IMG/VR virus record: IMGVR_UViG_3300012348_000120
Source of the DNA: a virus
Taxonomy: Duplodnaviria; Heunggongvirae; Uroviricota; Caudoviricetes
Length of the DNA stretch: 46,205 nucleotides
Direction: 5' to 3' (one strand)
Shown: positions 6,932 through 20,140 of the stretch, piece after piece
How positions within the stretch are numbered: the stretch's first letter is position 1
How the letters are laid out: each line of letters starts with the position of its first letter
Translations under genes and position numbers: made by a program
Notes under the pieces: generated by a model
What the model was told of the DNA's origin: nothing
What the model saw: only the letters and a program-made list of their open reading frames with translations
Database searches by the model: none

Positions 6932-6951
6932 ACTTCAATCTAACGATGAAT

Positions 6952-7551: not shown

Positions 7552-7612
7552 TTATTGGCATAAATCCTCATATTTTGATTGATGCACTCTGTGCATACTT
7601 CTATCACCTGAA

Positions 7613-7620
7613 TATTTATC
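7613..7620 (-). promoter_or_regulatory. Late promoter motif (GATAAATA) upstream of aox
   Basis: Same motif as the other intergenic copies. Confidence 0.6.
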
Positions 7621-7659
7621 CAACGAAAGTAGTTTGAGTATATACTTCATCTGATTCTT

Positions 7660-8008
7660 TCTAAGTTGTGGTGTGAGTGTCACCGTTTCTGTTTCGAGGT
7701 AGGTGACCCACCCAAGTAGATTAGGCAGCTAGTGCGTAAGCTACAGGAGCAAAGTTTTCGTTTGCATTTAGTTTTTTGGCTGAATAACGTAGGCCAACAC
7801 GGTAATCTCCACTTGCTTTCAACACCTGTCGATCCTATTTCGAGCCCATCAAAGATACACTTCCTACATTTCGTAGTTGCGTCTAACTGCCTTTGACTGT
7901 CCATACGGTTAGACCTAGTTTTCGTATGCGTCATCAAAGTGTATCTGTGGTGGACCCGCTGGGTACTGCCCCCAGGTCCAGAATGTCTATCGTCTGCTTC
8001 AACGATTA
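7660..8008 (-). ncRNA. ssrA: Circularly permuted (two-piece) tmRNA, alphaproteobacterial type
   Basis: Order on the minus strand: T-arm CTGGG-GGCAGTA-CCCAG plus CGGGTCC-ACCA (CCA ends 7948); 100-nt intervening segment; 5' acceptor strand GGGCTCG-AAATAGGATCGAC (starts 7847) giving G3.U70; pk1-like TTGGC/GCCAA; resume context TAAAT-GCA; tag ANENFAPVAYALAA* (7765-7721). Outer boundaries are approximate. Confidence 0.92.
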
Positions 8009-8014
8009 CAATAC

Positions 8015-8045
8015 TATTTATGCCACAATGTTGATCAAATGTCAA
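8015..8045 (-). promoter_or_regulatory. tmRNA promoter (TTGACA-17-CATAAA, overlapping a CATAAATA late motif)
   Basis: -35 at 8040-8045 and late-type element at 8015-8022. Confidence 0.55.
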
Positions 8046-9406
8046 GAAAAACTTGAACGATTGCTAACATAATTTTCCACACAAACCTTTTTTTTGTTGT
8101 AAAATTCCTCTGTGTAGAAATCAACATGACGAATATGTATCATATCTTTCCAGTCATACCCAACTCCACCAAACATACTAAGCGCAAATGCAGCCAAGGT
8201 TGTTCGGTTTTGATTCTGTATTCTAAACTCATCTGCTATGTTATTTGCAGTGTCTAAGTTCCATATGCCATTTTCCCAATAACTATCATCATGAGGAAAA
8301 ACGAAACCGTATTTTTCTGCGTTCACGGCAAACTCGGACTTCTTTGAACTCAGATCAAGACCTATGAAATAACCGTTCAAATCATTATCTTGTAGCCATT
8401 TGTTATCATCTCGTAGTTGCTGCGGGGTTTGACCAGGCAAACCAGCGATGAACCCCATTTCCCAGTTTATATCTGGATACCACTGTTTTTTCAGATGCAG
8501 TAAAAATTCTTTTCCATGTTGACCGCTCCATCCTTTTCCAATTAATTTTGAACTCTGCGTCTCAAAGGATTCTATTCCAAAAAAGCAACTTCTCATTCCG
8601 CTTTTTCGTAATGAGTTTATCATAGATGGATACCGCCAAATTAAATCCGCTCTACAATACCCAACCCATTCTAACTCAAACGGCATTCTTTTGGCAATGC
8701 TGACTAACGCCTCAACTTTCTCTTCGCTTTCGTTTACTGTGTCATCAACATAGCTAAACCGAGTTACACCAAAATTCTCATAATAATACAGTATTTCTTG
8801 TTCTACTATATTAAAGTTACGAAGGTAAGTTCCTGGCCTTTTGCCTATCAGTCTATAATCACAAAACTTGCATTTGAATTTGCAACCCCGTCCTAATTCA
8901 ATAGGCAAAACCTCAGTCGGCAATATGGCATCGTTTTTAGTGAATACGGTTCCTGCTGTCTTAATGTCAAATTGACTATGGGTCAAATTGAAAAATATTG
9001 ACAAGTCTTCTTCTGCAAAGCTCTCAAACTTTATCCACGATTCATCAAACAAATGTGTTTTATGCCCGCCGACTATCCATTTTATTTTAGGATATTCATT
9101 TTCAATTTCTGATTTGTTGCTGTATAGCCACTGTGGATGTTTTTCAGAATCCTTAATGAAGGTAGAACTTACTCCGATATATTCTGTTTCGTCGGTGATA
9201 AAACTTTTGGTAAGATGCAGTAATTGATCTTGCGACATTGAATTGGCGAAATCAATAACGATTGTATTGAAATTGTGTTGTCTCAACCAACTCGCGATTC
9301 GATGCGGCCCCAAATACCTACTGAAATGAGCGCCATTATTATTGACAGTAAAACGATTGTCGTCAAAATTTGAACTCGTTATATTCCATATGATAAACTT
9401 TGCCAT
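8042..9406 (-). CDS. Cobalamin-binding radical SAM protein (class B methyltransferase-like)
   Basis: CxxxCxxC (ELGRGCKFKCKFC); N-terminal B12-binding-like domain (GPHRIAS, YIGVSSTF, IVGGH); FFGIESF and FIAGLPGQT. Confidence 0.85.
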   Translation of the reverse strand: MAKFIIWNITSSNFDDNRFTVNNNGAHFSRYLGPHRIASWLRQHNFNTIVIDFANSMSQDQLLHLTKSFITDETEYIGVSSTFIKDSEKHPQWLYSNKSEIENEYPKIKWIVGGHKTHLFDESWIKFESFAEEDLSIFFNLTHSQFDIKTAGTVFTKNDAILPTEVLPIELGRGCKFKCKFCDYRLIGKRPGTYLRNFNIVEQEILYYYENFGVTRFSYVDDTVNESEEKVEALVSIAKRMPFELEWVGYCRADLIWRYPSMINSLRKSGMRSCFFGIESFETQSSKLIGKGWSGQHGKEFLLHLKKQWYPDINWEMGFIAGLPGQTPQQLRDDNKWLQDNDLNGYFIGLDLSSKKSEFAVNAEKYGFVFPHDDSYWENGIWNLDTANNIADEFRIQNQNRTTLAAFALSMFGGVGYDWKDMIHIRHVDFYTEEFYNKKKVCVENYVSNRSSFS

Positions 9407-9420
9407 CTTAATGCCAACAG

Positions 9421-9585
9421 TCAGTCAAAATGGTTCCAACTCGATGGAGCATTTTTGACATCGCCATACTTGCGCAAGAATTCGTCAACTGCTTTTTCAC
9501 GATCAAATTTTTCTTCTTTCGGTGGAACGTTGGAAGACTTTTCTTTCTTTCGTTTCACTTTGGATATGAGGTCTGTTATTTTCAT
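9421..9585 (-). CDS. Small basic protein (54 aa, MKITDLISK...), missed by the ORF track
   Basis: Hand-translated ATG 9585 to TGA 9421, with a late motif upstream at 9613-9620. Confidence 0.55.
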   Translation of the reverse strand: MKITDLISKVKRKKEKSSNVPPKEEKFDREKAVDEFLRKYGDVKNAPSSWNHFD

Positions 9586-9612
9586 ATGGCAGCTTTCCTA
9601 TTTTATTATGGG

Positions 9613-9648
9613 TATTTATCGTAAACCAGACAAATTCAAGCATAAATA
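9613..9648. promoter_or_regulatory. Divergent pair of late promoter motifs
   Basis: GATAAATA on minus (9613-9620) and CATAAATA on plus (9641-9648). Confidence 0.6.
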
Positions 9649-9668
9649 TTAGTACAGAAGGTGGCAAT

Positions 9669-10199
9669 ATGATACACAAAGAAATAGATATTAAAATTGA
9701 TATTCAACAATTACTTGACGATGTTACAAAAATCAGTAATGTCGCGGGATGGAAATTAAATCAAATAGCACTTCAATATCACAATGAAATTGACTGGCAC
9801 TCTGGTGTTGGTAAATCTGACTTTTTAAGTGGCAACGAAGAAGAATACATTCATTACCATCCATTTTTAGACGGAATGTATATTAAAGAATTACTAGAAA
9901 GTTTTGATTTTCCAGTCGCACATTCAAGAATTATGCTATTACCTCCCAAGACTTGCTATACTACCCATGTAGATTATTATACACGGTATCATATTCCAGT
10001 GACAAGTAAACCACTTCAAACGTTTATGTTATTCCCAGACAAAGGTGAAATTCTTAGAATGTATCCAGGAAAAGCATATTGGACAAATACGTATGAATTG
10101 CATAATTTTGTCAATGGAACGTATGAAGATAGAATACATATTGTTTTTAACAGCGCATTAGAAAAAAAGAACCTTGACAATCCATATTTGAGTATGTAA
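9669..10199 (+). CDS. Asp/Asn beta-hydroxylase-like 2OG-Fe(II) oxygenase
   Basis: RIMLL..CYTTHVD (HxD), distal LHNFVNG and RIHIVF. Confidence 0.8.
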   Translation: MIHKEIDIKIDIQQLLDDVTKISNVAGWKLNQIALQYHNEIDWHSGVGKSDFLSGNEEEYIHYHPFLDGMYIKELLESFDFPVAHSRIMLLPPKTCYTTHVDYYTRYHIPVTSKPLQTFMLFPDKGEILRMYPGKAYWTNTYELHNFVNGTYEDRIHIVFNSALEKKNLDNPYLSM

Positions 10200-10200
10200 A

Positions 10201-10770
10201 ATGATAGTATGTGAAAAAATTAATGTAGATTTTGATTTCAACAGATTACTGGCAGAATCATTAGATATTATAAATGATATTGGCTGGCATAATGATCAGA
10301 TTTCTTTGCAATATAGTAATGTAGTTGATAGTTGGACTGATGATGTTGATCACTATGGGTATACAAGAAAAGAACACGAATGTGTGAATTGGAATAGTAA
10401 GCTAAATAATTCATACATAAAAGAGGTGATTGAAAGTATTCATCCATATGTATCAAGTGCCAGAATAATGAAATTGCCTGGGCCTGGTTGTTATATAACA
10501 CACGTTGACTTGTATACTAGATTTCAAATTCCACTCATTTTGGACCCGCTAAAAAGCTATATGATTTGGCCAGAGCACAGTCTGGTTGTTCCGTTAAAAC
10601 CTGGCGAAGCCTATTATTGTAATACCCATGAAATACACAATTATGTAAATGGCGAATACGAAGACCGAATAAATATAATTTTTAACGATGCAAGAGAACA
10701 GCCATATTTGGACAATCCGCACATCGACCGACTTTTCAAAAACTTCATAGAGGATATGAAATGGAAATAA
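10201..10770 (+). CDS. Asp/Asn beta-hydroxylase-like 2OG-Fe(II) oxygenase (close paralog of the previous gene)
   Basis: CYITHVD, IHNYVNG and EDRINIIF. Confidence 0.8.
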   Translation: MIVCEKINVDFDFNRLLAESLDIINDIGWHNDQISLQYSNVVDSWTDDVDHYGYTRKEHECVNWNSKLNNSYIKEVIESIHPYVSSARIMKLPGPGCYITHVDLYTRFQIPLILDPLKSYMIWPEHSLVVPLKPGEAYYCNTHEIHNYVNGEYEDRINIIFNDAREQPYLDNPHIDRLFKNFIEDMKWK

Positions 10771-11534
10771 CACTACATGGGAAATTGAAAGATATAAAAA
10801 ATGCTCCTGCATTTGATCACTCCTGTAATCCACGATGCGAACCTGAAAGAGCAGTTCATCCCGCAGCAAAAAAGTTACTATACGTTCCTCACTACAACGT
10901 GGCAAGAGGAATTGACATTGATGTTGACCAAGTAAACCGAGAGATTGAAGTTGCGAACCAAGGTAAATGGGCAAGCTACAACAACGATGTTAAGGGACAG
11001 CGCGGGGCTGGTTTGAGCACCTATTGGAACGCTCGTATGCTACGAAATTTTGTTCCAGATAGTGAATTTGGGTTTGGAGAAACGCTAGACTACCTAGAGC
11101 AAATTGGGCGTCAAGATGAAGTTCATAACGGAAGAGTTCCACCTAGCTCTCTGACCGCAACACCGTTGTTTCACGAAGTGCCATACCTTGTCAGTCTCAT
11201 AGAACGATTTGTAACAATAGAGATGTGCGACCGAATTATGATTTCTCGTGTTGAACACAATCAGAGAATTAACTGGCACAGCCATAATTACTATGAAAAA
11301 ACATACTCACACGCCTATCTTCATATCCCGTTGCGCACAAATGTTGGAACTGAAATGTTAGTGTATATGGATGATACGCTACACCGACAGCATTATGGAG
11401 TTGGTGAAGCATGGGTAATAAACACACAACACAACCATGCTGTAAATAACAAGATAAACGGCGAAGATCGTTATCACATTTTAATACTAGCAAATTTTGA
11501 GGATAAAAAATTTAATGAATTACTTTTGGGTTAA
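10761..11534 (+). CDS. Asp/Asn beta-hydroxylase-like cupin oxygenase with HxH in place of HxD
   Basis: RIMISRV..INWHSH, LHIPL, HNHAVNN and DRYHIL. Confidence 0.7.
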   Translation: MEITLHGKLKDIKNAPAFDHSCNPRCEPERAVHPAAKKLLYVPHYNVARGIDIDVDQVNREIEVANQGKWASYNNDVKGQRGAGLSTYWNARMLRNFVPDSEFGFGETLDYLEQIGRQDEVHNGRVPPSSLTATPLFHEVPYLVSLIERFVTIEMCDRIMISRVEHNQRINWHSHNYYEKTYSHAYLHIPLRTNVGTEMLVYMDDTLHRQHYGVGEAWVINTQHNHAVNNKINGEDRYHILILANFEDKKFNELLLG

Positions 11535-11982
11535 TCCAAATACACAGGTCAAAGAAAGCAGTGTCCATGGACTATGCAGATACGCAACCACACGAGTAAA
11601 AAAAGGTGACGTAATATTTGTGGCTGGCGGCGTTGCTATAAACAATCAAGAAACCACTTGGTATAAAGGCTTGCTTATAGACAAGGATTACGTTCTTGAT
11701 TTGCCAGTCGGAAGCGAATACGAGGCTTACGTGAATCATAGCTGTGATCCAAATTGTTACATAGACGGTCAGATAGTGTTTCGTGCTCTTCGGGACATTG
11801 ACGAAGGCGAATTCATTACAGTTGACTACGGAACATTTTTCCTGACCAAGAAAAATCCAATTGATCCTTGTAAATGTGGTGCTGAAAAATGCAGAGGCAA
11901 AGTGACTGGCGAAGACTACAAGACGTTGGACTTGCCTCTTAGTTGGTATGCACAGAAAAAACTAAAAAGCGAAAGTAGTTGA
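11514..11982 (+). CDS. SET-domain methyltransferase with post-SET cysteines
   Basis: SSVHGLCRYA, YVNHSCDPNC, ALRDIDEGEFITVDYG and CKCGAEKCRG; start taken at ATG 11514. Confidence 0.85.
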
Positions 11983-12563
11983 TAGAACGCATGACACTGT
12001 TGACAACGGGAAATCCAAAATATGGATTGGCATCTGCAATAAAGTATGTATTGGGTGGAGACTTTTCAAGTAGGTCTTCTGGCATCGATTTGGAAACAGA
12101 TGATGGGATGGATGCGTTTGTTGAAAAAAGTATGGCTTACTCACAAGTCATACTAAATTGCTATACAGAAAAAATGAACAATTATAGTCAAGCCAGACTA
12201 CTTCATAAAATTTACATCAAGTGGGTTGAAGAAAATAAGAGTGGTCAAATTGTATGTATCGGCAGTATTAGCGATCACATACACAAAGAACAACCTTGGC
12301 TAAAATACGTAAGTTATGGCGCAGAAAAATTAGCACTCAAAAATCTATGCCAGACCATCAATCACAACAGAGATAGTGTTTCTCCAAAGATACGATGCAC
12401 CTATATAAGTTTAGGTCATATGCACACTCCATACGTTGATCGACTTCATCCTGATGAAGTAAAATTAAAAACTGAAAGCGTGGCTGATGTGATAAAATTC
12501 ATATTGCACCATCAAGAATGCATAGAAGAAATAACACTGACCAAGGATAAAACAAATGGATGA
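11979..12563 (+). CDS. Short-chain dehydrogenase/reductase-like protein
   Basis: TTGNPKYGLA Rossmann-like start, IVCIGSIS and YxxxK (YGAEK); TTG start. Confidence 0.65.
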   Translation: MIERMTLLTTGNPKYGLASAIKYVLGGDFSSRSSGIDLETDDGMDAFVEKSMAYSQVILNCYTEKMNNYSQARLLHKIYIKWVEENKSGQIVCIGSISDHIHKEQPWLKYVSYGAEKLALKNLCQTINHNRDSVSPKIRCTYISLGHMHTPYVDRLHPDEVKLKTESVADVIKFILHHQECIEEITLTKDKTNG

Positions 12564-13308
12564 TTACATATATGCATTTGAAATGAAATACAACAGAGAG
12601 TATTTGTTTGACACAGTTAGACAAATAACTCACTGGCCTGCGTATGCCGATCCAAACACTGCATTCAAAACATCACACCGAGATATTCTGTTTCCAATCG
12701 ATATGGAAGCAATCAAAATAAAAAATTCAATATTGACTTCTACTACATACAGTTTTAGTGTAGTTCCACCTGGTCATGAAACTGGATGGCATACGGATAA
12801 AAACCGAGGATGCACTCTTATACTCCCAATAAATCCAGAACCTCATTTGATAAAATTCAATGTAGATGAAAACATCATAGATTATTACTATGATGGGCCA
12901 GTCATAACAAATGCAAAAACATTACACAATGGAATAAATCATACTGATGTAAATCGTTATAATCTTTTGTTTCATTTTGATTTGCCATATCATGATGTAA
13001 TGGACTTAATAAAAAATAACAATCTAATTGATGATTGGAAACAGACTTACGACATTGCGTTATTTTATGATTCGCCTATGATTTCAGAATACTTCAACAC
13101 TACTACTGATATTGAGAATGCATCAATATTGATTACGGACGATATTGAATTGGCTAATTCATATGAGAATAGAAAGTTCATAATATTCATCGGAGATAGC
13201 AACAAAAAATTCGTTGAAGTAATAGGCAAAAATCACAATGAAATAATAAAAACAATCAAATTCATTCTTGATTGCCCATTTAAAATAAAATCTGTTGTAT
13301 TGGAGTAA
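12556..13308 (+). CDS. 2OG-Fe(II) oxygenase with a C-terminal extension
   Basis: TGWHTD, distal LHNGIN and RYNLLF. Confidence 0.7.
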   Translation: MDDYIYAFEMKYNREYLFDTVRQITHWPAYADPNTAFKTSHRDILFPIDMEAIKIKNSILTSTTYSFSVVPPGHETGWHTDKNRGCTLILPINPEPHLIKFNVDENIIDYYYDGPVITNAKTLHNGINHTDVNRYNLLFHFDLPYHDVMDLIKNNNLIDDWKQTYDIALFYDSPMISEYFNTTTDIENASILITDDIELANSYENRKFIIFIGDSNKKFVEVIGKNHNEIIKTIKFILDCPFKIKSVVLE

Positions 13309-13310
13309 GT

Positions 13311-13889
13311 ATGTTTACGTTTGATTCAAGTATAATAAAGTTTGACTTGCAAAATGAAGAAATATACAAATATCTTTTTTCCGCTGAATGGAGAAAGTCA
13401 GTTATAGATGATGGGTATCATAATTATGGCGGCTTCACAGATGTATTGAAAACGCCTTCTAACAAAGTATTCAATACAGGAAATTACTGCATTGGCGACA
13501 AGCATACCGATTTAGTTGATAGACAGTTCAAAGAAATGTTTGGATGCTTTGTTGAGAGTCACTACATCAGTATTCTTCCAATGTGCAAAGTTGGTGAGCA
13601 CTATGACATATATGATGCAGATGACGAAACTGTGAATGCAACAGAGAATGACTTCATTAACACCAGCATACTATATCCAGTGTTTGGAGATATTGACGTA
13701 ACTGGAAATGGAGTTACAAGACGTTTGATGCCAAACGTATTTACAGTGATTGATACTTCTAAGCTGCATGACGGAATGAATTTAAATAAATCGCTGTCTT
13801 GGTGCACCAGTTCATTATGCTATAATATAACATATTTGGAAGTAAAAGAAAAATTAAAAGACTTTATAGTGGAAGATTTAGATGAGTGA
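13311..13889 (+). CDS. 2OG-Fe(II) oxygenase-like protein
   Basis: VGEHYD and distal LHDGMN. Confidence 0.6.
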   Translation: MFTFDSSIIKFDLQNEEIYKYLFSAEWRKSVIDDGYHNYGGFTDVLKTPSNKVFNTGNYCIGDKHTDLVDRQFKEMFGCFVESHYISILPMCKVGEHYDIYDADDETVNATENDFINTSILYPVFGDIDVTGNGVTRRLMPNVFTVIDTSKLHDGMNLNKSLSWCTSSLCYNITYLEVKEKLKDFIVEDLDE

Positions 13890-14427
13890 ATTATATACAT
13901 TTTTGCCAGAATTAAAAGTTGATCTTGCCGATATTACAAAAACAATTGAAGATAAAAATGGTTGGGTTGAAATAACACCAGAAAAAGAAAACCATGGATA
14001 TGTTCAATACTATAAGAATTATCAACCAGAATGGCTTACGTCACAGCTTCTTCCTATTTGGAGTTATATGGGTCTACTCATAGCGTGTAGAGCGGGCGAG
14101 TATTTAATTCCACATGTGGATACTGGCAGAACAAGTGGCATACTTATTCCTTGCACAAACAGCTATACTGAGAATACATTGGACTTTTGGGATATTCCTG
14201 CGTGGGATGGGACAATTGGAAAACAAGAAAAATTCCATGACTATAGTGATGGCAAGATAATAGATCAAGTTCTATATACCTCCCCCATACTATTTAAAAA
14301 TGTGCCACATGGAGTAGACAACCGAAACAGCACAGACGGTAGAATTAATCTGAGTGTATGCTTTATGGAACCATACACATATGAAGTCGTAAAATCACTA
14401 TATGAAAAGGGACTGTTGATAAGATAA
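13882..14427 (+). CDS. 2OG-Fe(II) oxygenase-like protein
   Basis: LIPHVD, distal PHGVDN and RINLSV. Confidence 0.7.
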   Translation: MSELYTFLPELKVDLADITKTIEDKNGWVEITPEKENHGYVQYYKNYQPEWLTSQLLPIWSYMGLLIACRAGEYLIPHVDTGRTSGILIPCTNSYTENTLDFWDIPAWDGTIGKQEKFHDYSDGKIIDQVLYTSPILFKNVPHGVDNRNSTDGRINLSVCFMEPYTYEVVKSLYEKGLLIR

Positions 14428-15197
14428 TGAAAGAATATTGGAATGACTTTTTGCCTGGTCCGCTCCCTCTACCACAGTATAGAAAAAACTTGCCCTATTT
14501 TCTATCACAGTCTGAGAAAACCTCATTCGAAGAAGCCCTGAAGGTCCAACCTACCGATTGGAAATACAGAACCAAGCCAATAAGATACGATCTAAATAGA
14601 TCAGACTACCGAACAAAAGAATGGGATATGATTGATTGGGGGCAAGCAATAGTTGTTCTTGGTTGCTCACACGTGTTCGGAGAAGGAAATTCAATAGACG
14701 AAACACTGTGTCACCAACTTGAAAAAATTACTGGACATGATGTAGTCAATTTGGGAGTCACTGGTAGTAGTCCGCTATTCAGTTGGCACAACAGTCTTAT
14801 TCTCAACAAGAAATACCCAACTCCATATGCGGTAGTTCAGGTATGGTCCAGTCCATCCAGAATACCATACTACGCTGAAACCATATGCAAAAGAATTGGA
14901 CCTTGGAGTGGATCAATATGGGATGAGTATGACACTTCTGCAAAAAACTTGTTTGAACTATGGAATGAATCAGAATCTCACACCTATAATAGTTTGTATT
15001 TCACATCGGAAGCAAGTCAAGTGTTCTGGTCAGACAAAACAAGATATGCACAAGGTAGTTACTTTAAAGACGTATCCGACTTTTTGAATATTTCTTTCTA
15101 TCAAGAGATAGATTTGGCAAGAGATTTAATTCACTATGGAGAAATGACACACCGAATTGCCGCAGAAGATATTGCGACTCAAATAGAAAGAATGTAA
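14427..15197 (+). CDS. SGNH-like hydrolase family protein
   Basis: VVLGCSHVFGEG (Ser in block I), VNLGVTGSS and C-terminal DLIHYG (DxxH). Confidence 0.65.
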   Translation: MKEYWNDFLPGPLPLPQYRKNLPYFLSQSEKTSFEEALKVQPTDWKYRTKPIRYDLNRSDYRTKEWDMIDWGQAIVVLGCSHVFGEGNSIDETLCHQLEKITGHDVVNLGVTGSSPLFSWHNSLILNKKYPTPYAVVQVWSSPSRIPYYAETICKRIGPWSGSIWDEYDTSAKNLFELWNESESHTYNSLYFTSEASQVFWSDKTRYAQGSYFKDVSDFLNISFYQEIDLARDLIHYGEMTHRIAAEDIATQIERM

Positions 15198-15198
15198 A

Positions 15199-15708
15199 TT
15201 GAAAATTGCAATTACAGGCCATACCAAAGGATTAGGAAAAACAATATGCGATATTCATGGACAACATAATATCGTTGGATTTTCAAGATCAAATGGATTT
15301 GATATAACTGTGAAAGAACACAGAGAAAGAATGATAGACCTTTCGCAAGACTGCGATGTTTTTATCAATAATGCGTATGATAAGTTTGGCCAAATAGAAT
15401 TGCTATACGATCTTTATGGCAATTGGAAAAACAAGAACAAGACGATTGTAACCATAGGAAGCTATGCATCAAATGCTGCCGAATGGAGATTACAACCATG
15501 TTTATACAGCACAGTGAAAAAAGCATTAGACGTAGTTACGTATCAATTAGTAAACAGCCATGATAGAAATGGCTGCAAATTGATGATATTTAAACCAAGT
15601 TATATTGGAGATGGGGAAAACAAAATACCATATCAATTTGCAGCGAAATATTTGCTTGATGCGATAAAAAATAACACACATCAAACGATTGAGTTAGTTT
15701 TAAGATAA
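15199..15708 (+). CDS. Short-chain dehydrogenase/reductase
   Basis: IAITGHTKGLG, DVFINNA, IVTIGS and YSTVK; TTG start. Confidence 0.8.
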   Translation: MKIAITGHTKGLGKTICDIHGQHNIVGFSRSNGFDITVKEHRERMIDLSQDCDVFINNAYDKFGQIELLYDLYGNWKNKNKTIVTIGSYASNAAEWRLQPCLYSTVKKALDVVTYQLVNSHDRNGCKLMIFKPSYIGDGENKIPYQFAAKYLLDAIKNNTHQTIELVLR

Positions 15709-16362
15709 AACCTGATTCCTAATGTCGTCTGTAATCTCGCCATTGTGTTCAATGTAAATTATTGTATCATGAGTTGGTTTCCAACTAAACCCTTCCTCCA
15801 ATATATTTGCATACACATATTGTAACAGATCACTTTTTTTGCTGACCTTAAAAATCATATTCGGTTGTATCTTAAAAGACTGATAGGTTTCTGTCATAAA
15901 ATACGGAACTGCATCGCCACGAAATGGCATCTTTTTCTTGTGTTGATACATTGCATTCAACGCCTTATTATTGACATTATGTGTCCAGTATAAGACTTTC
16001 AGCCCTTGTTGTTTTGCCCAAGATACCTGCTTTTCTAACATTCTGAATCCTGCGTTGCTATGGCGGAACTTTTTAAGAATGTGATACCTACATATTCTTC
16101 CAGCAATATCTGGATCACCAGTGTAGTGACTTCTTTCCACTACACTGATACTTGCAAGTTCATCGCCAACAAATGTCATCCAAGTCTGCCCGTTCAAATT
16201 GTCTGGATCATACTTTTCGTAACTTAAAGAATCATTGCCTTCTGCAAATGTCTGTTGTCTGAAATCCTCAATCGCTTGTCTATAACTTGGATCATACTCC
16301 ACGACATAGACGTTTTCATAAACTACTATGTCCAAATTTACATTTGTCTCTACGTTGCTCAT
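15700..16362 (-). CDS. GNAT-family acyl/acetyltransferase
   Basis: RYHILKKFRHSNAG acetyl-CoA-binding-like motif A, then WAKQQG and NKALNAMY. Confidence 0.65.
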   Translation of the reverse strand: MSNVETNVNLDIVVYENVYVVEYDPSYRQAIEDFRQQTFAEGNDSLSYEKYDPDNLNGQTWMTFVGDELASISVVERSHYTGDPDIAGRICRYHILKKFRHSNAGFRMLEKQVSWAKQQGLKVLYWTHNVNNKALNAMYQHKKKMPFRGDAVPYFMTETYQSFKIQPNMIFKVSKKSDLLQYVYANILEEGFSWKPTHDTIIYIEHNGEITDDIRNQVLS

Positions 16363-16389
16363 TCTTCTGTCCTTGTTGTTTGAGGTATA

Positions 16390-17010
16390 TTATACTTCAA
16401 AATTTTCAACGTCTGCTTGTCCGTCAAGACTAAACATAAGAGCGATGCGTGGCTTGTCACTTCTGTTAAAGACTGCGTGTGGATAAGCAATATTTAAAAA
16501 GTATGCATTTCCTGGTTTTAGAATGTATTCTTCAATTTGACCATCTCGCTTAAACTGATTAATAACCAAGTCGTCAGAATAAATTGGGCAGATACAACGA
16601 ACTGCGTAACTTACGTCATAGTCAACATGAAATGGGATTTCTTTTCCTGCTGCCAGTTTTGTAATACGAACTCTACTCGCAGGAGCCTTGCACTGATTTA
16701 CAATATTCTCAAACACGCTGCCTATGAACTCTTCTGTTGGAACATTATACAAATGTTCTTCCTTGCGACGAAGGCGTTCTTTTACGTTGTCAGTGTATGG
16801 TAGAATTTTGCTTGGCTTTGTCAAGTTAATCTGTTCAAAGTTGTCGTATACTTGCTCAACTAATGCCATATGATTATCACAGAGCATCGGATTCGCGGTG
16901 CGAACATCAACAAATTTGGCGGCAAGCGCGTCTGTCTCTCTTTGCAATCTTTCTAAATCAATGTCAAGATTTAAATTTGCAATCGTTGGAAGTTGGTGTT
17001 TTTTCTTCAT
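16390..17010 (-). CDS. Asp/Asn beta-hydroxylase-like 2OG-Fe(II) oxygenase
   Basis: RVRITKL..IPFHVD, PHAVFN and RIALMF. Confidence 0.85.
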   Translation of the reverse strand: MKKKHQLPTIANLNLDIDLERLQRETDALAAKFVDVRTANPMLCDNHMALVEQVYDNFEQINLTKPSKILPYTDNVKERLRRKEEHLYNVPTEEFIGSVFENIVNQCKAPASRVRITKLAAGKEIPFHVDYDVSYAVRCICPIYSDDLVINQFKRDGQIEEYILKPGNAYFLNIAYPHAVFNRSDKPRIALMFSLDGQADVENFEV

Positions 17011-17765
17011 AGTTTATATATCCCTGATAAGCAAAGTCTTGCTATGTTGTTTTTTCTTCTGAATTTCTGATAATCGTCATGAGTGGATGTGGCCAACCAA
17101 ACACTATCACTTGGAACCGCATCCAATTCTTGACAGACCATCTTTTGTTGATTTTTAAACATATTATGTATGTAGTTAATACCGTAACTATTTATGATTT
17201 TTTCTGCCACATGATGGGCATTGTAGTTGTAATACTTGGCGTTGTAAGTTAAATCATGAAGTCGTTTATCTTCTTTACGAGTGAATATCCATCCTGTTCG
17301 TATGTTTCGGACACCAAATGGTTTACTCAAACTGTAAAACACATATTCAATATTATCTGTCATTGGAATTTGACGAACTTCTGTGCTTCCTACATATGCC
17401 AAATCTAATGCAACTGGCATATGTGTGGGGATATTTACGAAATTTCCATCAATAGAACTTGGACATGACATATATAAAATGTCTCCGTTACCACTCTTTG
17501 GCTGAACCCATTGATAGTCTCCCTTCTCAATATGAATTGATCGGGATTCATTTGCCATCCACCAGTTCAGTCCTTCTGTGATTCCATTGACAGGATACAC
17601 GAAAAACATTGATAGGTCAATGACTGGACTCAACCACTCCTTGATGTTTGTTTTGTAGTGTTCTACACTGTCATAATCAAATTCAAGAGACGAGAGTGTG
17701 TTTCTAACTTCGGGTAGGCAAGGAGTTCTAATCGCGGTTGACAGGCTTAGTATTGAGTCTTTCAA
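17007..17765 (-). CDS. PLP-dependent (fold type I) aminotransferase/decarboxylase-like protein
   Basis: DLAY and FYSLSKPFG (PLP lysine); probable TTG start at 17765 behind a GGAGG SD, overlapping the desaturase 3' end. Confidence 0.65.
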   Translation of the reverse strand: MKDSILSLSTAIRTPCLPEVRNTLSSLEFDYDSVEHYKTNIKEWLSPVIDLSMFFVYPVNGITEGLNWWMANESRSIHIEKGDYQWVQPKSGNGDILYMSCPSSIDGNFVNIPTHMPVALDLAYVGSTEVRQIPMTDNIEYVFYSLSKPFGVRNIRTGWIFTRKEDKRLHDLTYNAKYYNYNAHHVAEKIINSYGINYIHNMFKNQQKMVCQELDAVPSDSVWLATSTHDDYQKFRRKNNIARLCLSGIYKL

Positions 17766-18477
17766 TAAACCATCCTCCCATATCAAACTCCCACCATCTG
17801 TCTTTAAATGACCATTTATTAGGATGAGCATGGTGATTGTTATGCCAGCCTTCTCCCCACATCAAATATCCAAGTGCATAAATGTTTGTGCTGTCGTCAC
17901 TTGTGTTATGATTACGATACCCAATCATATGTGTCAGTGTGTTAATGAAACTTCCTGCATTCCACAAAATAGCTGCTGGAAGCAGATACGCACTCACTAA
18001 CAGCATCGGATCAATAATGAACCATAGCACGAAGATGCCGAGATGAAGCAACATATAATTTTTATGCAGGAAAGTATGAAATTCACTACGCAATAAATGT
18101 GCGGCATACTTTGGCTTTGGTTTGTCAAACATACTTAGCCACTGAACATGAAAGAATCCTTTGTGCTTTGGACTATGGGGGTCACCTTCGCCATCCGTAT
18201 GGTGATGATGCTCTCTGTGTATAGCAACCCATCCAATACTACTTCCAGTCAAGCCATATGTGCCAGCGAGTGTTCCAAAGTATTCAAACCAGAATGGTGG
18301 TTCCCAACTTTTGTGCGAAAGCAACCGATGGTATGTCATGGTCATACCAAAACAACCTGTGATGAAATATACAAAAAACGATATGATCCAATGATACCAT
18401 TCGCCATATATTATCATTGGAATTATACTTAGGTGTGCTATGATTTGAGCAAAAAGAAGTCTATATGGAGTAATCAT
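17728..18477 (-). CDS. Membrane acyl-CoA (delta-9-type) fatty acid desaturase
   Basis: His boxes YHRLLSH, HREHH and HNNHH; GEGWHNNHH motif; hydrophobic segments. Confidence 0.92.
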   Translation of the reverse strand: MITPYRLLFAQIIAHLSIIPMIIYGEWYHWIISFFVYFITGCFGMTMTYHRLLSHKSWEPPFWFEYFGTLAGTYGLTGSSIGWVAIHREHHHHTDGEGDPHSPKHKGFFHVQWLSMFDKPKPKYAAHLLRSEFHTFLHKNYMLLHLGIFVLWFIIDPMLLVSAYLLPAAILWNAGSFINTLTHMIGYRNHNTSDDSTNIYALGYLMWGEGWHNNHHAHPNKWSFKDRWWEFDMGGWFIERLNTKPVNRD

Positions 18478-18532
18478 TTAAAGGTAATTATCTTTCTGAA
18501 TAAAATACAATTCAATACTACCACAAATTGTA

Positions 18533-19462
18533 TTATGTGTCAACGACATTGTTTGAAAATATGGAAAAATACAGTAGGTGTATTCCATCGTGCGGAGAAA
18601 CTTTGTGCTTCCATCCCAGTAGTTTTCTTGTTTTTGAAGTGTCGGATAGAGTAGAACTCGCATATCCTTTTGGTTTCGGTATATAACTTATATTTAGTTC
18701 TGGCTTGTATTGTCGTAATATTTCAACTACTTCATTGATTGAGATATTTTGTTCAGTTCCAACATTGAAAACTTCATTCTTAACTTTGCTTTCAATTGCA
18801 GTATAAAATGCATTCGCAACATCATAAACATGAATGAAATCTCTGCGAAAATTACCGTCACCATGAATAGTCAACGGCAAATTTTCTGCCGCGAGTCTTG
18901 CGAATTTCGCAATCATAAGACCGTTCATATCATCAGATGGTTGTCCATCACCATACACCGTAAACAGTCTCAGTATGGTGTATTCCAGCCCATATAAATT
19001 ACGAAACTGTTTGCAAAGATGCTCACCAAACAGTTTCGTCATAGCGTAATAGTTTAGTGGATTTGGCTTGTGGTATGGCTTATTTGGGGTTGGATGATTT
19101 CCATACACGCTTGAACTACTTGCGTAGACTACTTTTTTTATACTTTTTGCTGCCGCCGCCGCCAAGAGGTTTTGTGTTCCAACTACATTATTCAAAAAGT
19201 ATGCGCTTGGATTTGTGAAACTTTCAGGTATTCTTGCCTTGGCGGCGAGATGGATTATGTAATCTTGGTTTTCACAAGCAGACAAACACTGTGATATGTC
19301 TATGATGTCGCCCTGAATGTATCTCACGAACTGCAAATCATCTGGTTGCGGTTTCAAATCAATAACTGTTACATTGTAACCTTCAAATTGTAGTTTCTTG
19401 ACTACTTCTTTGCCAATGAAACCAGCACCGCCAGTTACTAACACATTTCCATTAAACTTCAT
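18533..19462 (-). CDS. NAD-dependent nucleotide-sugar epimerase/dehydratase
   Basis: VTGGAGFIG, HLAA, YASSSSVYG, YAMTK and RDFIHVYD. Confidence 0.92.
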   Translation of the reverse strand: MKFNGNVLVTGGAGFIGKEVVKKLQFEGYNVTVIDLKPQPDDLQFVRYIQGDIIDISQCLSACENQDYIIHLAAKARIPESFTNPSAYFLNNVVGTQNLLAAAAAKSIKKVVYASSSSVYGNHPTPNKPYHKPNPLNYYAMTKLFGEHLCKQFRNLYGLEYTILRLFTVYGDGQPSDDMNGLMIAKFARLAAENLPLTIHGDGNFRRDFIHVYDVANAFYTAIESKVKNEVFNVGTEQNISINEVVEILRQYKPELNISYIPKPKGYASSTLSDTSKTRKLLGWKHKVSPHDGIHLLYFSIFSNNVVDT

Positions 19463-19483
19463 GGTTCCCCCAAACTGATAATA

Positions 19484-19578
19484 TATTTATCTATCCATAG
19501 ATATGCGTTTTATGCAACTCGAGTCTTCCAAAATGTGGGTTGATATAGGTCAATTTTACTGATATATTCATATAAATA
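19484..19578. promoter_or_regulatory. Divergent pair of late promoter motifs
   Basis: GATAAATA on minus (19484-19491) and TATAAATA on plus (19571-19578). Confidence 0.6.
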
Positions 19579-19635
19579 CTTGTAGATGCCGCAACGCAGC
19601 ATGTATTTTTTACTCACACATATACGGAGACTAAA

Positions 19636-19809
19636 ATGACTAATATGTTTTTTGATACATTTGTAAAAATGTTTTCCAGCAAAAATATGTCACCTCGTAA
19701 CGACCTATTGACTTTGGCAAAAATCGAATACGGAAATGATTGGGAATGGGCCTATGACAAGCTGTTGACCTCAAACGGAAAAATGCCAAGACTTGGAGGA
19801 AAGCTATGA
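19636..19809 (+). CDS. Small hypothetical protein (57 aa; AKIEYGNDWEWAY)
   Basis: Hand-translated; SD GGAGA; the stop overlaps the next ATG (ATGA). Confidence 0.65.
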   Translation: MTNMFFDTFVKMFSSKNMSPRNDLLTLAKIEYGNDWEWAYDKLLTSNGKMPRLGGKL

Positions 19810-19970
19810 TTTCTAAACTAATCCTATGGTTTCATAGAAGATCGGTATACAACCAAACATTTAAAGAACTGGCGTCAATGAGTGACCGAGATTTGTATGA
19901 TCTTGGAATAACAAGAGGCGACATTTCTACTTTGGCATACGAAGCAACATACGGGAAAACACACAAATGA
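19806..19970 (+). CDS. DUF1127 (YjiS-like) small protein, 54 aa
   Basis: RRSVYNQTFKELASMSDRDLYDLGITRGDI matches the DUF1127 pattern R..Y..T..EL..LSDR.L.DIGI.R.DI. Confidence 0.85.
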   Translation: MISKLILWFHRRSVYNQTFKELASMSDRDLYDLGITRGDISTLAYEATYGKTHK

Positions 19971-20140
19971 TTAACTTTTTCAAATCACTATTCACAAAGC
20001 AAGACGAAAAGTCTGTAATAGAAGAATACTTGGCTGACAGTCTAAGTCTAGAAGACTTGGAACGCCGCCAGAGACTTATTGCACGAGGCGAAGCGCCTTG
20101 GCAACTTAGAGCAAATCAAAACGTGAAAGGATGGATATAA
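19967..20140 (+). CDS. DUF3563-like small protein, 57 aa
   Basis: EEYLADSLSLEDLERRQRLIARG resembles the YLA.S.D..DLERR.R pattern; ATGA coupling. Confidence 0.6.
   Translation: MINFFKSLFTKQDEKSVIEEYLADSLSLEDLERRQRLIARGEAPWQLRANQNVKGWI

What the first reader, a model, noticed from the sequence alone, without database searches (positions are those of the whole stretch)
8042..19462. An ~11-kb late-promoter tailoring-enzyme cluster: seven oxygenases plus radical SAM, SET, SDRs, SGNH, GNAT, PLP enzyme, desaturase and epimerase
Seen in the sequence: about 16 contiguous, mostly overlap-coupled enzyme genes in three transcription units. Each unit starts at an NATAAATA motif (9613-, 9641+, 19484-). 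No NRPS/PKS, nucleotide kinase or obvious DNA-base-modifying enzyme lies in the cluster. A GT-A glycosyltransferase-like gene (20291) and a second SGNH gene (2167) are nearby. Established: AspH-like 2OG-Fe(II) enzymes hydroxylate peptides and lipids, SET proteins methylate Lys, and class B radical SAM enzymes methylate unactivated carbons. Inference: because expression appears late, the likeliest product is a decorated virion surface (hydroxylated, methylated, acylated or glycosylated tail/capsid proteins or glycans) or a remodelled host envelope, rather than early metabolic support. The pathway itself is unassigned.
Basis: partly seen in the sequence, partly recalled or inferred. Interest (0 to 1): 0.75.

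Follow-up and report, generated by a model that had tools for sequence, protein, structure and literature searches.

The report
Phage tailoring-enzyme island, substrate unknown
A giant uncultured freshwater phage carries a tightly packed block of 16 modifying enzymes behind late-type promoters; the block is built from gene cassettes shared by many aquatic phages (including one cultured SAR11 phage), and it most likely tailors an amino-acid/fatty-acyl compound of the infected cell, though the product is unknown.

Summary
Window 8042-19462 has 16 enzyme-like genes plus one 54-aa ORF, in three units. Each unit lies behind an ATAAATA box, and no early-type promoter lies inside.

Domain calls:
- Confirmed: radical SAM (class-B-like), SET, GNAT, delta-9-type desaturase, GalE-like epimerase and a minimal fold-type I PLP enzyme (AF2 pLDDT 94.7).
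- Supported by motifs: two short SDRs and an SGNH-like protein.
- Of the "seven oxygenases", five are AspH-like by sequence, one by profile comparison, and one by motif only.

The region is a mosaic, not one fixed pathway.
- Two cassettes recur in the same order at 50-84% identity in a 518-kb phage contig and in other contigs.
- A reduced version lies upstream of the tail-fibre genes of cultured Pelagibacter phage Mosig.
- The closest relatives keep the flanks (80-96%) but carry a different island with an acyl-CoA-synthetase-like enzyme, a thiolase and a sulfotransferase.
- The radical SAM and the epimerase have separate histories.

Best reading (about 0.4): late tailoring of an amino-acid-derived, probably acylated, cellular compound. 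Virion decoration is less likely (about 0.2). This scan has noted the same cassette type before on other DNA. It is a new member of a known but uncharacterised kind.

The parts
8042..9406 (-). g8042: radical SAM enzyme of 454 aa with class-B-like architecture. It has an N-terminal Rossmann-like pattern and a CKFKCKFC cluster motif.
   Evidence: Pfam PF04055 5.2e-11. NCBIfam PhpK family 1.3e-19, HpnJ 6e-12 and BchE 2e-9, all far below cut-offs. It is absent from the cassette in L093/L094. Homologues of 26-31% identity sit right after gp59-gp32 in T4-like marine contigs (shown for L008).
9421..9585 (-). g9421: 54-aa Lys-rich ORF, the first gene behind the 9613-9619 box and 14 nt upstream of the radical SAM gene.
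   Evidence: No homologue was found in any fetched locus, so it is not a supported precursor peptide.
9606..9648 (.). Divergent late-type boxes: GATAAATA on the - strand (9613-9619 core) and CATAAATA on the + strand (9642-9648 core).
9669..10199 (+). g9669: AspH-like cupin of 176 aa with an HVD...H...R pattern.
   Evidence: PF05118 0.0033, below cut-off. It is 42% identical to g10201. Orthologues are 64-66% identical in L093/L094.
10201..10770 (+). g10201: AspH-like cupin of 189 aa, a paralogue of g9669.
   Evidence: blastp 4e-48 to g9669 and 7.5e-5 to g16390. 49% identical in L094.
10761..11534 (+). g10761: AspH-like Fe/2OG oxygenase of 257 aa with an extra N-terminal part of about 130 aa. 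It always lies next to the SET gene.
   Evidence: PF05118 4.9e-7, above cut-off. Weak PDB match to L-proline cis-4-hydroxylase 4p7w (0.048). 55-64% identical in L087-89, L093 and L094, adjacent to SET in each.
11497..11982 (+). g11497: SET-domain methyltransferase of 161 aa with NHSC and post-SET Cys motifs.
   Evidence: PF00856 8.5e-13. PDB matches: MLL1 1e-11, ASH1L and NSD, plus the free-methionine methylase BurB at 1.6e-5. 67-84% identical in relatives.
11979..12563 (+). g11979: short SDR-like oxidoreductase of 194 aa with a YGAEK motif.
   Evidence: adh_short 9e-5, below cut-off. NCBIfam SDR families down to 7e-7. 30% paralogue of g15199.
12556..13308 (+). g12556: AspH-like cupin of 250 aa (HTD...H...R) with a C-terminal extension.
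   Evidence: PF05118 5e-4, below cut-off. OlsC model only 0.034. 50-53% identical in relatives.
13311..13889 (+). g13311: unknown protein of 192 aa. It has an HYD...H pattern but no Arg after the second His, so the oxygenase assignment is unverified.
   Evidence: No Pfam or NCBIfam hit. 55% orthologue in L093. Alignment.
13882..14427 (+). g13882: probable Fe/2OG oxygenase of 181 aa (PHVD...PHGVDN...RIN).
   Evidence: No Pfam hit. hhalign to the AspH-like profile gives E 2e-4, probability 46%. One JGI homologue is named a Tpa1-like proline hydroxylase.
14427..15197 (+). g14427: SGNH-like protein of 256 aa (GCSH...DLIH).
   Evidence: DUF6473 3.9e-4, below cut-off. Virus-only atlas clusters, with Lipase_GDSL on 15% of one cluster. 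51% identical in L094.
15199..15708 (+). g15199: minimal SDR of 169 aa (TGHTKGLG, NNA, YSTVK).
   Evidence: adh_short 0.0014. Motifs. 68-69% identical in L094/L095.
15700..16362 (-). g15700: GNAT acyltransferase of 220 aa, from a virus-restricted family with an invariant RxCRYHILKK motif.
   Evidence: PF00583 8e-6. AF2 pLDDT 88 with a generic GNAT fold. 221 metagenomic homologues. Found in only 2 of 185,579 GTDB species. 48% identical in phage Mosig.
16390..17010 (-). g16390: AspH-like Fe/2OG oxygenase of 206 aa, the most conserved member of the cassette.
   Evidence: PF05118 6e-7, above cut-off. 67% identical in Mosig. 69-90% identical in L082, L085-89, L093, L094 and L097. Virus-only atlas clusters.
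17007..17786 (-). g17007: minimal fold-type I PLP enzyme, aminotransferase or lyase-like, with a probable 259-aa form starting at TTG 17786. The SLSK Schiff-base lysine and the Asp and Arg residues are invariant.
   Evidence: AF2 pLDDT 94.7. Foldseek hits TAA1, alliinase, HisC and OvoB from E 4e-9 at TM 0.6. 390 unnamed homologues. Invariant columns.
17728..18477 (-). g17728: membrane di-iron desaturase of 249 aa with delta-9 (SCD/DesC)-type His boxes. It is the only protein of the cluster with transmembrane segments.
   Evidence: PF00487 1.1e-10; NCBIfam DesA family 1.6e-26, below cut-off. 63-77% identical in L002, L081-86 and L094/95. TM scan.
18533..19462 (-). g18533: NAD-dependent sugar epimerase/dehydratase (GalE-like) of 309 aa. 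It is the first gene of the - strand unit but belongs to the conserved flank, not to the mobile cassette.
   Evidence: PF01370 2e-61; GalE 6.6e-48, below cut-off. 80% identical in L091/L092, where it travels with the flanking genes.
19484..19490 (-). Late-type box (GATAAATA) about 21 nt upstream of the epimerase start. A second box at 19571-19578 (+) faces the other way.

Best explanation
The region is a hypervariable accessory island of an uncultured freshwater jumbo phage. The phage has a PA5oct/Atu_ph07-like replication module and probably infects an alphaproteobacterium.

The island is assembled from mobile, virus-restricted enzyme cassettes.
- Cassette A: delta-9-type membrane desaturase, minimal PLP aminotransferase-like enzyme, AspH-like Fe/2OG oxygenase, GNAT and a short SDR.
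- Cassette B: four to six further small Fe/2OG cupins, a SET methyltransferase fixed next to one of them, a second short SDR and an SGNH-like protein.
- A B12-type radical SAM gene and a GalE-like epimerase flank the cassettes and have separate histories.

The island is transcribed from T4-type late boxes.

Proposed mechanism (inferred, not shown): the soluble enzymes tailor an alpha-amino-acid-derived compound of the infected cell. The steps would be transamination, N-acylation by the GNAT, N- or S-methylation by SET, keto reduction, and several regiospecific hydroxylations. The compound would carry or be joined to a fatty acyl chain that the desaturase modifies, giving a lipoamino-acid-like or acyl-amide product in the cell envelope. 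Because the tailoring set varies between close relatives, the product is probably under diversifying selection, as surface molecules are.
For: Shown by tools:
- Domain and fold identities.
- Tight packing.
- Fourteen of the 16 genes recur at 50-84% identity (epimerase only weakly, 25%), the cassette genes in the same order, in a 518-kb contig (L094). Large parts recur in L093, L095, L087-89, L086, L002, L081/84, L085 and L099.
- Each cupin paralogue has its own positional orthologue, so the copies are not redundant.
- Cultured Pelagibacter phage Mosig carries AspH, desaturase, aminotransferase, TauD, methylase, GNAT and AspH as one block behind a TATAAATA box.
- A 121.8-kb contig from an independent study covers 6000-22000 co-linearly. 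It shows substitutions only within the cluster, with no indels in coding sequence.
- The families are virus-only in the atlas. The GNAT is present in 2 of 185,579 GTDB species.

Pointing to a small-molecule or acyl substrate:
- g17007 is a class-I-type aminotransferase fold with an invariant Lys and a C-terminal Arg.
- The desaturase-PLP gene pair overlaps, and its adjacency is kept from Mosig to the jumbo phages.
- The allelic island of the closest relatives (flanks 80-96% identical) holds an AMP-binding acyl-activating enzyme (6e-62), a thiolase, a sulfotransferase (9e-40), a methyltransferase, the same PLP enzyme and an AspH-like protein.
- A SET enzyme acting on a free amino acid has a precedent in BurB (PMC12542666).
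- PF05118 weakly matches a free-proline hydroxylase.
- The GNAT stands alone among housekeeping genes in a Bdellovibrionales chromosome.
- SAR11 and roseobacters make aminolipids, and these affect phage attachment (PMC9938194).

Late-type control.
Against:
- No scaffold-forming enzyme is present. There is no OlsB, OlsA or OlsF-type acyltransferase, no ACP (none in three relatives) and no amide ligase.
- The GNAT fold matches generic N-acetyltransferases such as RimI, RimL, AAC(6') and ArsN. It does not specifically match N-acyl amino acid synthases.
- The OlsC model scores only 13 bits.
- All proteins except the desaturase lack membrane segments, whereas LpxO and OlsC-type lipid hydroxylases are membrane-anchored (from general knowledge).
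- SET is closest to protein lysine methyltransferases.
- The viral delta-9 desaturase could act alone on host lipids, as shown for cyanophage vFADs (PMC5776448).
Confidence: 0.4

Rival explanations
1. Virion decoration. The enzymes hydroxylate, methylate and acylate tail-fibre or capsid proteins, or glycans on them, late in infection. This would alter host recognition or particle stability.
For: - Late-type boxes head all three units.
- A tail-fibre-like Mtd_N protein and a virion structural protein lie 5-8 kb away behind the same box.
- In phage Mosig the cassette lies directly upstream of the tail-fibre genes on the same strand.
- Pelagimyophage host-recognition clusters carry radical SAM cassettes (PMC7029224).
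- SET is closest to protein lysine methyltransferases.
- The GNAT fold is near RimI and RimL.
- AspH itself is a protein hydroxylase (general knowledge).
Against: - A PLP aminotransferase fold, two SDRs and a membrane acyl desaturase have no known role in protein modification.
- The allelic island in the closest relatives has an acyl-CoA-synthetase-like enzyme, a thiolase and a sulfotransferase.
- The GNAT occurs alone in a bacterial chromosome without phage genes.
- There are no collagen-like repeats in the window.
- Hypervariable islands next to fibre genes may only mark a site that tolerates insertions.
Confidence: 0.2
2. Nucleotide-sugar or glycan tailoring. The enzymes make a modified amino sugar (dehydratase/epimerase, aminotransferase, N-acetyltransferase, reductases, C-methylation, hydroxylation) for host LPS or capsule, or for a virion glycan.
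For: - A GalE-like epimerase heads the - strand unit.
- A GT-A-like gene and a zeta-toxin-type kinase/phosphatase lie just beyond it.
- Aminotransferase, GNAT and SDR together is the usual amino-sugar logic (general knowledge).
- LPS genes fill pelagimyophage hypervariable clusters.
Against: - The PLP enzyme resembles TAA1, HisC and alliinase, not the DegT/ArnB sugar aminotransferases.
- The epimerase, the GT-like gene and the kinase belong to the conserved flank. They stay when the island is replaced.
- No glycosyltransferase lies inside the cassettes.
- The desaturase does not fit a sugar pathway.
Confidence: 0.15
3. Not a pathway. The region is a hyperplastic site that has collected independent auxiliary genes, each acting alone on a host substrate. 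Examples would be membrane fluidity through the desaturase and separate protein or metabolite hydroxylations.
For: - The island content differs in the closest relatives.
- The radical SAM and the epimerase have their own distributions. The fixed rSAM-epimerase spacing seen in marine contigs is explained, in the one contig annotated (L008), by gp59 and gp32 lying between them.
- vFADs work alone.
- AspH-like genes are core single genes in pelagimyophages.
Against: - Gene order and overlaps are conserved at 50-84% identity in distant phages.
- The desaturase-PLP-AspH-GNAT core recurs from a 141-kb T4-like phage to 518-kb phages.
- The SET-oxygenase pair is fixed.
- There are only substitutions across 11 kb in independent populations.
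Confidence: 0.15
4. A soluble, non-lipid amino-acid metabolite, such as a hydroxylated and methylated amino acid, a sulfonium or betaine compound, or an antimetabolite. It would be made late, by analogy with the BurB pathway (SET, PLP enzymes and a dehydrogenase).
For: - SET, a PLP enzyme and SDRs are all present, as in the BurB pathway.
- The GNAT fold is close to ArsN.
- The radical SAM is nearest to the PhpK and ArsL families.
- Methyltransferase plus TauD or AspH pairs recur in L002, L099 and Mosig.
Against: - SET is far closer to MLL (1e-11) than to BurB (1.6e-5).
- The desaturase is tightly coupled to the PLP gene.
- All family scores lie far below the cut-offs.
Confidence: 0.1

Closest known systems
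Accessory cassette Mosig_00072-00081 of Pelagibacter phage Mosig EXVC030M (MT647606), within the host-recognition-type hypervariable region of pelagimyophages (Zaragoza-Solas et al. 2020, PMC7029224)
   Same: It has the same families: AspH-like (67% identical to g16390), GNAT (48%), FA desaturase (34%) and a small aminotransferase overlapping the desaturase. It also pairs a methyltransferase with a 2OG oxygenase and sits behind a TATAAATA box. It lies in a variable island near tail-fibre genes.
   Different: Mosig is a 141-kb T4-like phage of marine SAR11. Its methylase is class I rather than SET, and it has TauD, an FMN reductase and a peroxiredoxin. It has two AspH-like genes rather than five to seven. 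Neither cassette has been characterised, and the genome announcement does not discuss the Mosig one.
Cyanophage delta-9 lipid desaturases (vFAD; Roitman et al. 2018, PMC5776448)
   Same: Both are phage-borne membrane desaturases with the three DesC/SCD-type histidine boxes.
   Different: No hit to cyanophage records was found. The protein here is shorter (249 aa) and is fixed next to a PLP enzyme, an oxygenase and a GNAT. Its regiospecificity and lipid substrate are untested.
Ornithine-lipid / aminolipid synthesis and modification (OlsB, OlsA, OlsC, OlsE, OlsG)
   Same: The kinds of chemistry match: N-acylation, acyl and head-group hydroxylation by AspH-family and di-iron enzymes, and N-methylation. 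The likely hosts (alphaproteobacteria, SAR11) make aminolipids, which matter for phage attachment.
   Different: No member passes a family test. The OlsC model scores 13 bits against a cut-off of 450. The GNAT is not OlsB-like. There is no OlsA-type acyltransferase. The hydroxylases are small and soluble.
BurB pathway of DMSP synthesis (SET-domain methionine S-methyltransferase with PLP enzymes and a dehydrogenase; PMC12542666)
   Same: It combines a SET-domain enzyme with PLP enzymes and an oxidoreductase acting on a free amino acid.
   Different: The BurB match is weak (1.6e-5) and covers only the SET core. No decarboxylase or aldehyde dehydrogenase is present.

Membership tests
Asp/Asn beta-hydroxylase-like Fe(II)/2OG oxygenases (Pfam PF05118) | Score above the Pfam gathering cut-off (22.6 bits) | tested here: inconclusive
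   Met for g10761 (30.2 bits) and g16390 (29.9). g9669 (17.7) and g12556 (20.4) score below it. g10201, g13311 and g13882 have no hit. g10201 is linked by 42% paralogy. g13882 is linked by hhalign at E 2e-4.
Asp/Asn beta-hydroxylase-like Fe(II)/2OG oxygenases (Pfam PF05118) | HxD/E...H iron triad, plus an Arg about 10 residues after the distal His for 2OG | tested here: met
   By inspection of the translations, the triad pattern is present in all seven. The Arg is present in six and absent in g13311. Catalysis was not tested.
Cobalamin-dependent (class B) radical SAM methyltransferases | CxxxCxxC cluster motif and radical SAM core | tested here: met
   CKFKCKFC motif; PF04055 43.4 bits against a 29.5-bit cut-off.
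Cobalamin-dependent (class B) radical SAM methyltransferases | N-terminal B12-binding domain, and membership of a named subfamily | tested here: inconclusive
   There is no PF02310 hit. Only a Rossmann-like sequence pattern is visible in residues 1-130. The best subfamily, PhpK, scores 70 bits against a cut-off of 600.
SET-domain methyltransferases | SET domain above cut-off, with the NHSC motif and post-SET cysteines | tested here: met
   PF00856 49.1 bits against 22.4. NHSCDPNC and CKCGAEKC motifs. MLL1 SET at 1e-11. The substrate (protein lysine or small molecule) cannot be tested here.
Delta-9 acyl-lipid / acyl-CoA desaturases (DesC / SCD / vFAD) | FA_desaturase domain with HxxxxH, HxxHH and HxxHH boxes, and membrane segments | tested here: met
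   PF00487 42.2 bits against 29.7; boxes present; transmembrane windows found. The NCBIfam DesA equivalog is not reached (93 bits against 400). Regiospecificity cannot be tested here.
Fold-type I PLP enzymes (aminotransferase class I/II) | The fold, with the Schiff-base Lys in an SxSK motif and the PLP-binding Asp | tested here: met
   AF2 pLDDT 94.7. Foldseek probability 1.00 to TAA1, HisC and alliinase. S154-K155, D128 and R163 are invariant. The Pfam cut-off is not reached (no hit; a relative scores 16.8 bits).
Ornithine-lipid / aminolipid pathway (OlsB, OlsA, OlsC) | An OlsB-type N-acyltransferase, an OlsA-type O-acyltransferase and an OlsC equivalog | tested here: not met
   No NCBIfam or Pfam match to OlsB or OlsA. 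OlsC model NF052565 gives 13.3 bits against 450. The GNAT fold is generic.
RiPP biosynthetic cluster | A conserved precursor peptide gene next to the maturase | tested here: not met
   The 54-aa ORF g9421 has no homologue in any of about 100 fetched loci. Relatives of the radical SAM have unrelated upstream genes.
Host recognition cluster (HRC) of T4-like aquatic myophages | A hypervariable island holding accessory enzymes (radical SAM, LPS-type genes) together with tail-fibre genes, between VrlC and gp14 | tested here: inconclusive
   Hypervariability is met: the island is replaced within 80-96% identical flanks. The enzyme content is similar. A fibre-like gene lies 5 kb away. The VrlC-gp14 landmarks were not found in the window, and the phage is PA5oct-like rather than T4-like in its replication genes.

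The most novel reading that the evidence does not exclude
The cassettes are a virus-specific pathway that builds, late in infection, a new class of hydroxylated, N-methylated and desaturated lipoamino acid (or acyl-amide) in the envelope of infected alphaproteobacteria. Phages vary its decoration to control superinfection, adsorption of progeny to debris, or lysis. The system would be testable in the cultured pair Mosig / Pelagibacter HTCC1062.
Probability: 0.25. Interest if true: 0.8.

Novelty: new member of a known kind. Interest (0 to 1): 0.5.

Why it matters
Hundreds of uncultured aquatic phage contigs, from 140-kb SAR11 phages to contigs above 500 kb, keep the same virus-only enzyme families under strong purifying selection. 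GNAT homologues are about 70% identical across many samples. Yet nobody knows the substrate.

If the product is an envelope lipid or a surface molecule, it would be a new way for phages to rewrite the host surface late in infection. It would then bear on phage-host arms races and on lipid budgets in abundant freshwater and marine bacteria.

This window adds three things:
- a version rich in oxygenases and carrying a SET gene;
- proof that the island is allelic within one phage lineage;
- a pointer to a cultured model in which the question can be tested.

Tried and rejected
- Megablast of the whole cluster, and tblastn of the radical SAM, against 50,697 phage records found nothing.
- PDB sequence and profile searches for g17007, the radical SAM, the GNAT and g13882 gave nothing useful.
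- RiPP reading: rejected, because the small ORF is not conserved.
- Collagen-like substrates: no Gly-X-Y runs in any frame of the window.
- Sphingolipid reading (SPT-like PLP enzyme plus ceramide-synthase-like GNAT): not supported. No alpha-oxoamine synthase appears among the top 50 fold matches, and the GNAT matches are generic.
- Functional link between radical SAM and epimerase, suggested by a fixed 3-kb spacing in about 50 marine contigs: rejected. In the one contig I annotated (L008), gp59 and gp32 lie between them.
- ACP search in three relatives: none found.
- Sigma70-type promoter and terminator scans of the cluster were at chance level.
- The merged profile of g13311 and g13882 against the AspH-like profile gave no significant match.
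- Sequencing runs: no RNA holder was listed, so nothing can be said on expression. Contig gaps in runs X2 and X5 are uninformative.
- The PA5oct paper gave no late-promoter motif to compare with.

Full report
**Setting.** The window comes from an uncultured phage. Its DnaB-type helicase is 52% identical to those of Pseudomonas phage PA5oct and relatives, and 50% identical to Agrobacterium phage Atu_ph07. Other genes of the window are phage replication and structural genes. No whole genome is held. Near-identical DNA occurs in freshwater and microbial-mat metagenomes from several studies. A permuted alphaproteobacterial-type tmRNA lies directly next to the cluster, which fits an alphaproteobacterial host.

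**The observation.**
- Between 8042 and 19462 lie 16 enzyme-like ORFs and one 54-aa ORF. Junctions range from -59 to +55 nt, and nine of the sixteen overlap.
- There are three units. The first is 9585 down to 8042 (-): the small ORF and the radical SAM gene. The second is 9669 to 15708 (+): eleven genes. The third is 19462 down to 15700 (-): five genes.
- Each unit begins 20-30 nt downstream of an ATAAATA box.
- ATAAATA occurs 24 times in the window against 14.8 expected. Fourteen of the 24 sit 5-55 nt upstream of a gene start on the same strand, against a 4% background (P about 5e-14). Control AT-rich heptamers mostly gave 5-25% (range 0-38%).
- The same box precedes the virion structural gene at 27923, the Mtd_N fibre-like gene at 25473 and other genes of the 1-31 kb part of the window.
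- The early-type promoters of this genome (TTGAC...CGAATCA on the - strand) lie at 1.6-1.8 kb and 44-46 kb. None lies in the cluster. The two YGATTCG matches inside it lack the promoter context.
- Three relatives, one of them close, encode a weak match to the T4 late sigma factor gp55 (E about 3e-4).
- So "late-type" is a fair inference from sequence, but timing was not measured.

**What the genes are.**
- Radical SAM g8042 has the cluster motif and the core domain. Its best matches are B12-type enzymes (PhpK, HpnJ, BchE, RiPP C-methylases), all far under the family cut-offs.
- SET g11497 has the NHSC and post-SET motifs. It matches MLL, ASH1L and NSD SET domains at 1e-11 to 1e-8, and more weakly BurB, a SET enzyme that methylates free methionine.
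- g17728 is a membrane desaturase with the three delta-9-type histidine boxes. It is the only protein of the cluster with membrane segments.
- g18533 is a GalE-like epimerase/dehydratase.
- g15700 is a GNAT. Its AF2 model (pLDDT 88) matches ordinary N-acetyltransferases such as RimI, RimL, AAC(6'), ArsN and PaiA at TM about 0.5.
- g17007 had no family hit. Its model (pLDDT 94.7) is a minimal fold-type I PLP enzyme nearest to TAA1, alliinase, HisC and OvoB. The SxSK lysine, an Asp and several Arg residues are invariant. Its family is about 255 aa long, so the gene probably starts at TTG 17786.
- The two SDR-like proteins are short but keep the TGxxxG and YxxxK motifs.
- g14427 is only weakly SGNH-like.
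- Of the seven proposed oxygenases, two pass the PF05118 cut-off and two score below it. One is a 42% paralogue of g9669. g13882 aligns to the AspH-like profile across the metal and 2OG motifs (E 2e-4, probability 46%). g13311 has only a partial motif.

**The region is a mosaic.** I searched IMG/VR with four of the proteins and mapped all cluster proteins onto the loci. This shows two recurring cassettes.
- Cassette A is desaturase, PLP enzyme, AspH-like g16390, GNAT and SDR g15199.
- Cassette B is g9669, g10201, g10761, SET, SDR g11979, g12556, g13311 (where present), g13882 and g14427.
- Both occur in the same order at 50-84% identity in a complete 518-kb contig (L094) and in L093. Parts occur in L095, L087-89, L086 (a 342-kb relative, 77-90% identical), L002, L081/84, L085 and L099.
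- Every cupin paralogue has its own positional orthologue, so the copies are old and not redundant.
- Relatives add further enzymes of the same sort: up to four more radical SAM proteins including a SPASM type, TauD dioxygenases and a TonB-dependent receptor.
- The radical SAM g8042 is not part of the cassettes. Homologues of about 40% identity stand in other contexts. About 75 homologues of 26-31% identity occur in marine contigs; in the one I annotated (L008) the gene sits right after gp59 and gp32 of a T4-like phage, which explains the fixed distance to an epimerase.
- The epimerase, the GT-like gene g20291 and the kinase-like gene g21166 belong to the conserved flank.
- In the closest relatives (L091/L092) the flanks are 80-96% identical on both sides. 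The island between the epimerase and the tmRNA/AOX side is different. It holds a radical SAM, a thiolase, a class I methyltransferase, the PLP enzyme (49%), a sulfotransferase, an AMP-binding acyl-activating enzyme, two unknowns and an AspH-like protein.
- The island is therefore allelic within one lineage, while its cassettes are conserved across lineages.

**Is it maintained?** Yes.
- A 121.8-kb contig from an independent microbial-mat study covers 6000-22000 co-linearly at about 97.6% identity. The only structural change lies inside the tmRNA.
- Across four runs no indel falls in coding sequence of the cluster.
- The GNAT, PLP and g13882 families have 221, 390 and 45 metagenomic homologues, mostly unnamed.
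- Atlas neighbours are almost all viral.
- Only two of 185,579 GTDB species genomes, both Bdellovibrionales MAGs, hold the GNAT. In one of them it stands alone among housekeeping genes.

**A cultured example.** The only phage isolate in 50,697 records with these proteins is Pelagibacter phage Mosig EXVC030M. Its matches are g16390 at 67%, the GNAT at 48% and the desaturase at 34%. Its genes 00072-00081 are AspH, desaturase, an overlapping small aminotransferase, FMN reductase, peroxiredoxin, an unknown, TauD, a methylase, GNAT and AspH. They form one block behind a TATAAATA box, directly upstream of the tail-fibre genes and on the same strand. The genome announcement does not discuss them. Zaragoza-Solas et al. 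describe the hypervariable host recognition cluster of pelagimyophages, with radical SAM cassettes and LPS genes, and list an AspH-like protein as core. I found no paper that describes the cassette as a unit or assigns it a function.

**Reading.** The chemistry present is transamination of an alpha-amino or keto acid, N-acyl transfer, N- or S-methylation, keto reduction, many C-H hydroxylations, acyl-chain desaturation and ester hydrolysis or transfer.
- The allelic island adds acyl activation, Claisen-type condensation and sulfation.
- This points to an amino-acid-derived, probably acylated, small molecule or lipid of the infected cell. It points away from DNA or virion proteins.
- The conserved, overlapping desaturase-PLP pair is the main link between acyl and amino-acid chemistry.
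- Aminolipids are made by SAR11 and roseobacters and affect phage attachment, which gives an ecological rationale.
- Against this reading, no scaffold enzyme, ACP or Ols-type protein is present. The GNAT is generic. The hydroxylases are soluble. SET looks most like protein methyltransferases.
- I therefore hold the lipoamino-acid-like reading at about 0.4. The rivals are virion decoration at 0.2, glycan tailoring at 0.15, unlinked auxiliary genes at 0.15 and a soluble metabolite at 0.1.

**Novelty.** Earlier notes of this scan describe the same cassette type on other DNA. I tested the Mosig and Bdellovibrionales leads and the host-recognition-cluster comparison myself. This copy is a new member of a known but uncharacterised kind. 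Its own features are the SET gene fixed to an oxygenase, five to seven cupins, and the clear allelic replacement in a PA5oct-like jumbo phage lineage.

Noticed in passing
window 7678-8049 (-): A phage-borne permuted alphaproteobacterial-type tmRNA (Rfam alpha_tmRNA 112.6 bits; ARAGORN tag ANENFAPVAYALAA) abuts the radical SAM stop and has an ATAAATA box at 8015-8021. In an independent population, 94 nt inside it (7853-7948) are replaced by 164 other letters. The ORF at 7680-8045 is therefore spurious.
   Followed up: partly
window 6952-7551 (-): An alternative oxidase (AOX/PTOX family, Pfam 5.9e-80) lies behind its own late-type box. It is 96% identical in the closest relatives and is another O2-using di-iron enzyme beside the island.
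   Followed up: partly
window 4460-5578 and 5828-6874 (-): Two paralogous proteins (phrog_11974, about 30% identical to each other). One has a weak PARP/ADP-ribosyltransferase-like hit (0.006). Both are conserved at 81-90% in relatives.
   Followed up: no
window 3577-4404 (-): A 275-aa protein with a signal-peptide-like N-terminus, alternating beta-strand pattern and a C-terminal Phe. It looks like an outer-membrane beta-barrel. It is 89% identical in relatives and has no family hit.
   Followed up: no
window 20291-21888 (-): Conserved flank pair. One is a GT-A-like protein (phrog_1574 5e-40; Anp1 0.004). The other is a zeta-toxin-type kinase fused to a PGP-phosphatase-like part (1.9e-13). Together with the epimerase they may form a separate sugar-nucleotide trio.
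   Followed up: partly
window 19571-20290 (+): A TATAAATA box is followed by four or five very small ORFs and a strong GC hairpin with a T-run terminator at about 20270-20290. The function is unknown.
   Followed up: no
window 24691-25473 (-): A 260-aa protein with an Mtd_N (major tropism determinant N-terminal) domain (3.8e-8). It is a likely receptor-binding fibre protein and lies behind a late-type box.
   Followed up: no
L081 8052-9914 and L084 8056-9918: Phage contigs of 71-75 kb encode a complete TonB-dependent receptor (Plug plus barrel) directly upstream of the desaturase cassette. Four radical SAM genes, one of them SPASM-type, lie in the same block.
   Followed up: no
L008 and about 50 similar marine loci: In L008, a T4-like marine phage contig, a 509-aa radical SAM gene of the g8042 family sits between gp32 and the baseplate genes. 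The matching spacing in about 50 similar loci suggests a conserved position.
   Followed up: partly
L104-L106 (relatives G001, G002, G004): Open frames of 290-328 aa with a weak match (E about 3e-4, 31-34% over 70-95 aa) to T4 late sigma factor gp55. They are candidate late sigma factors of this phage group.
   Followed up: no
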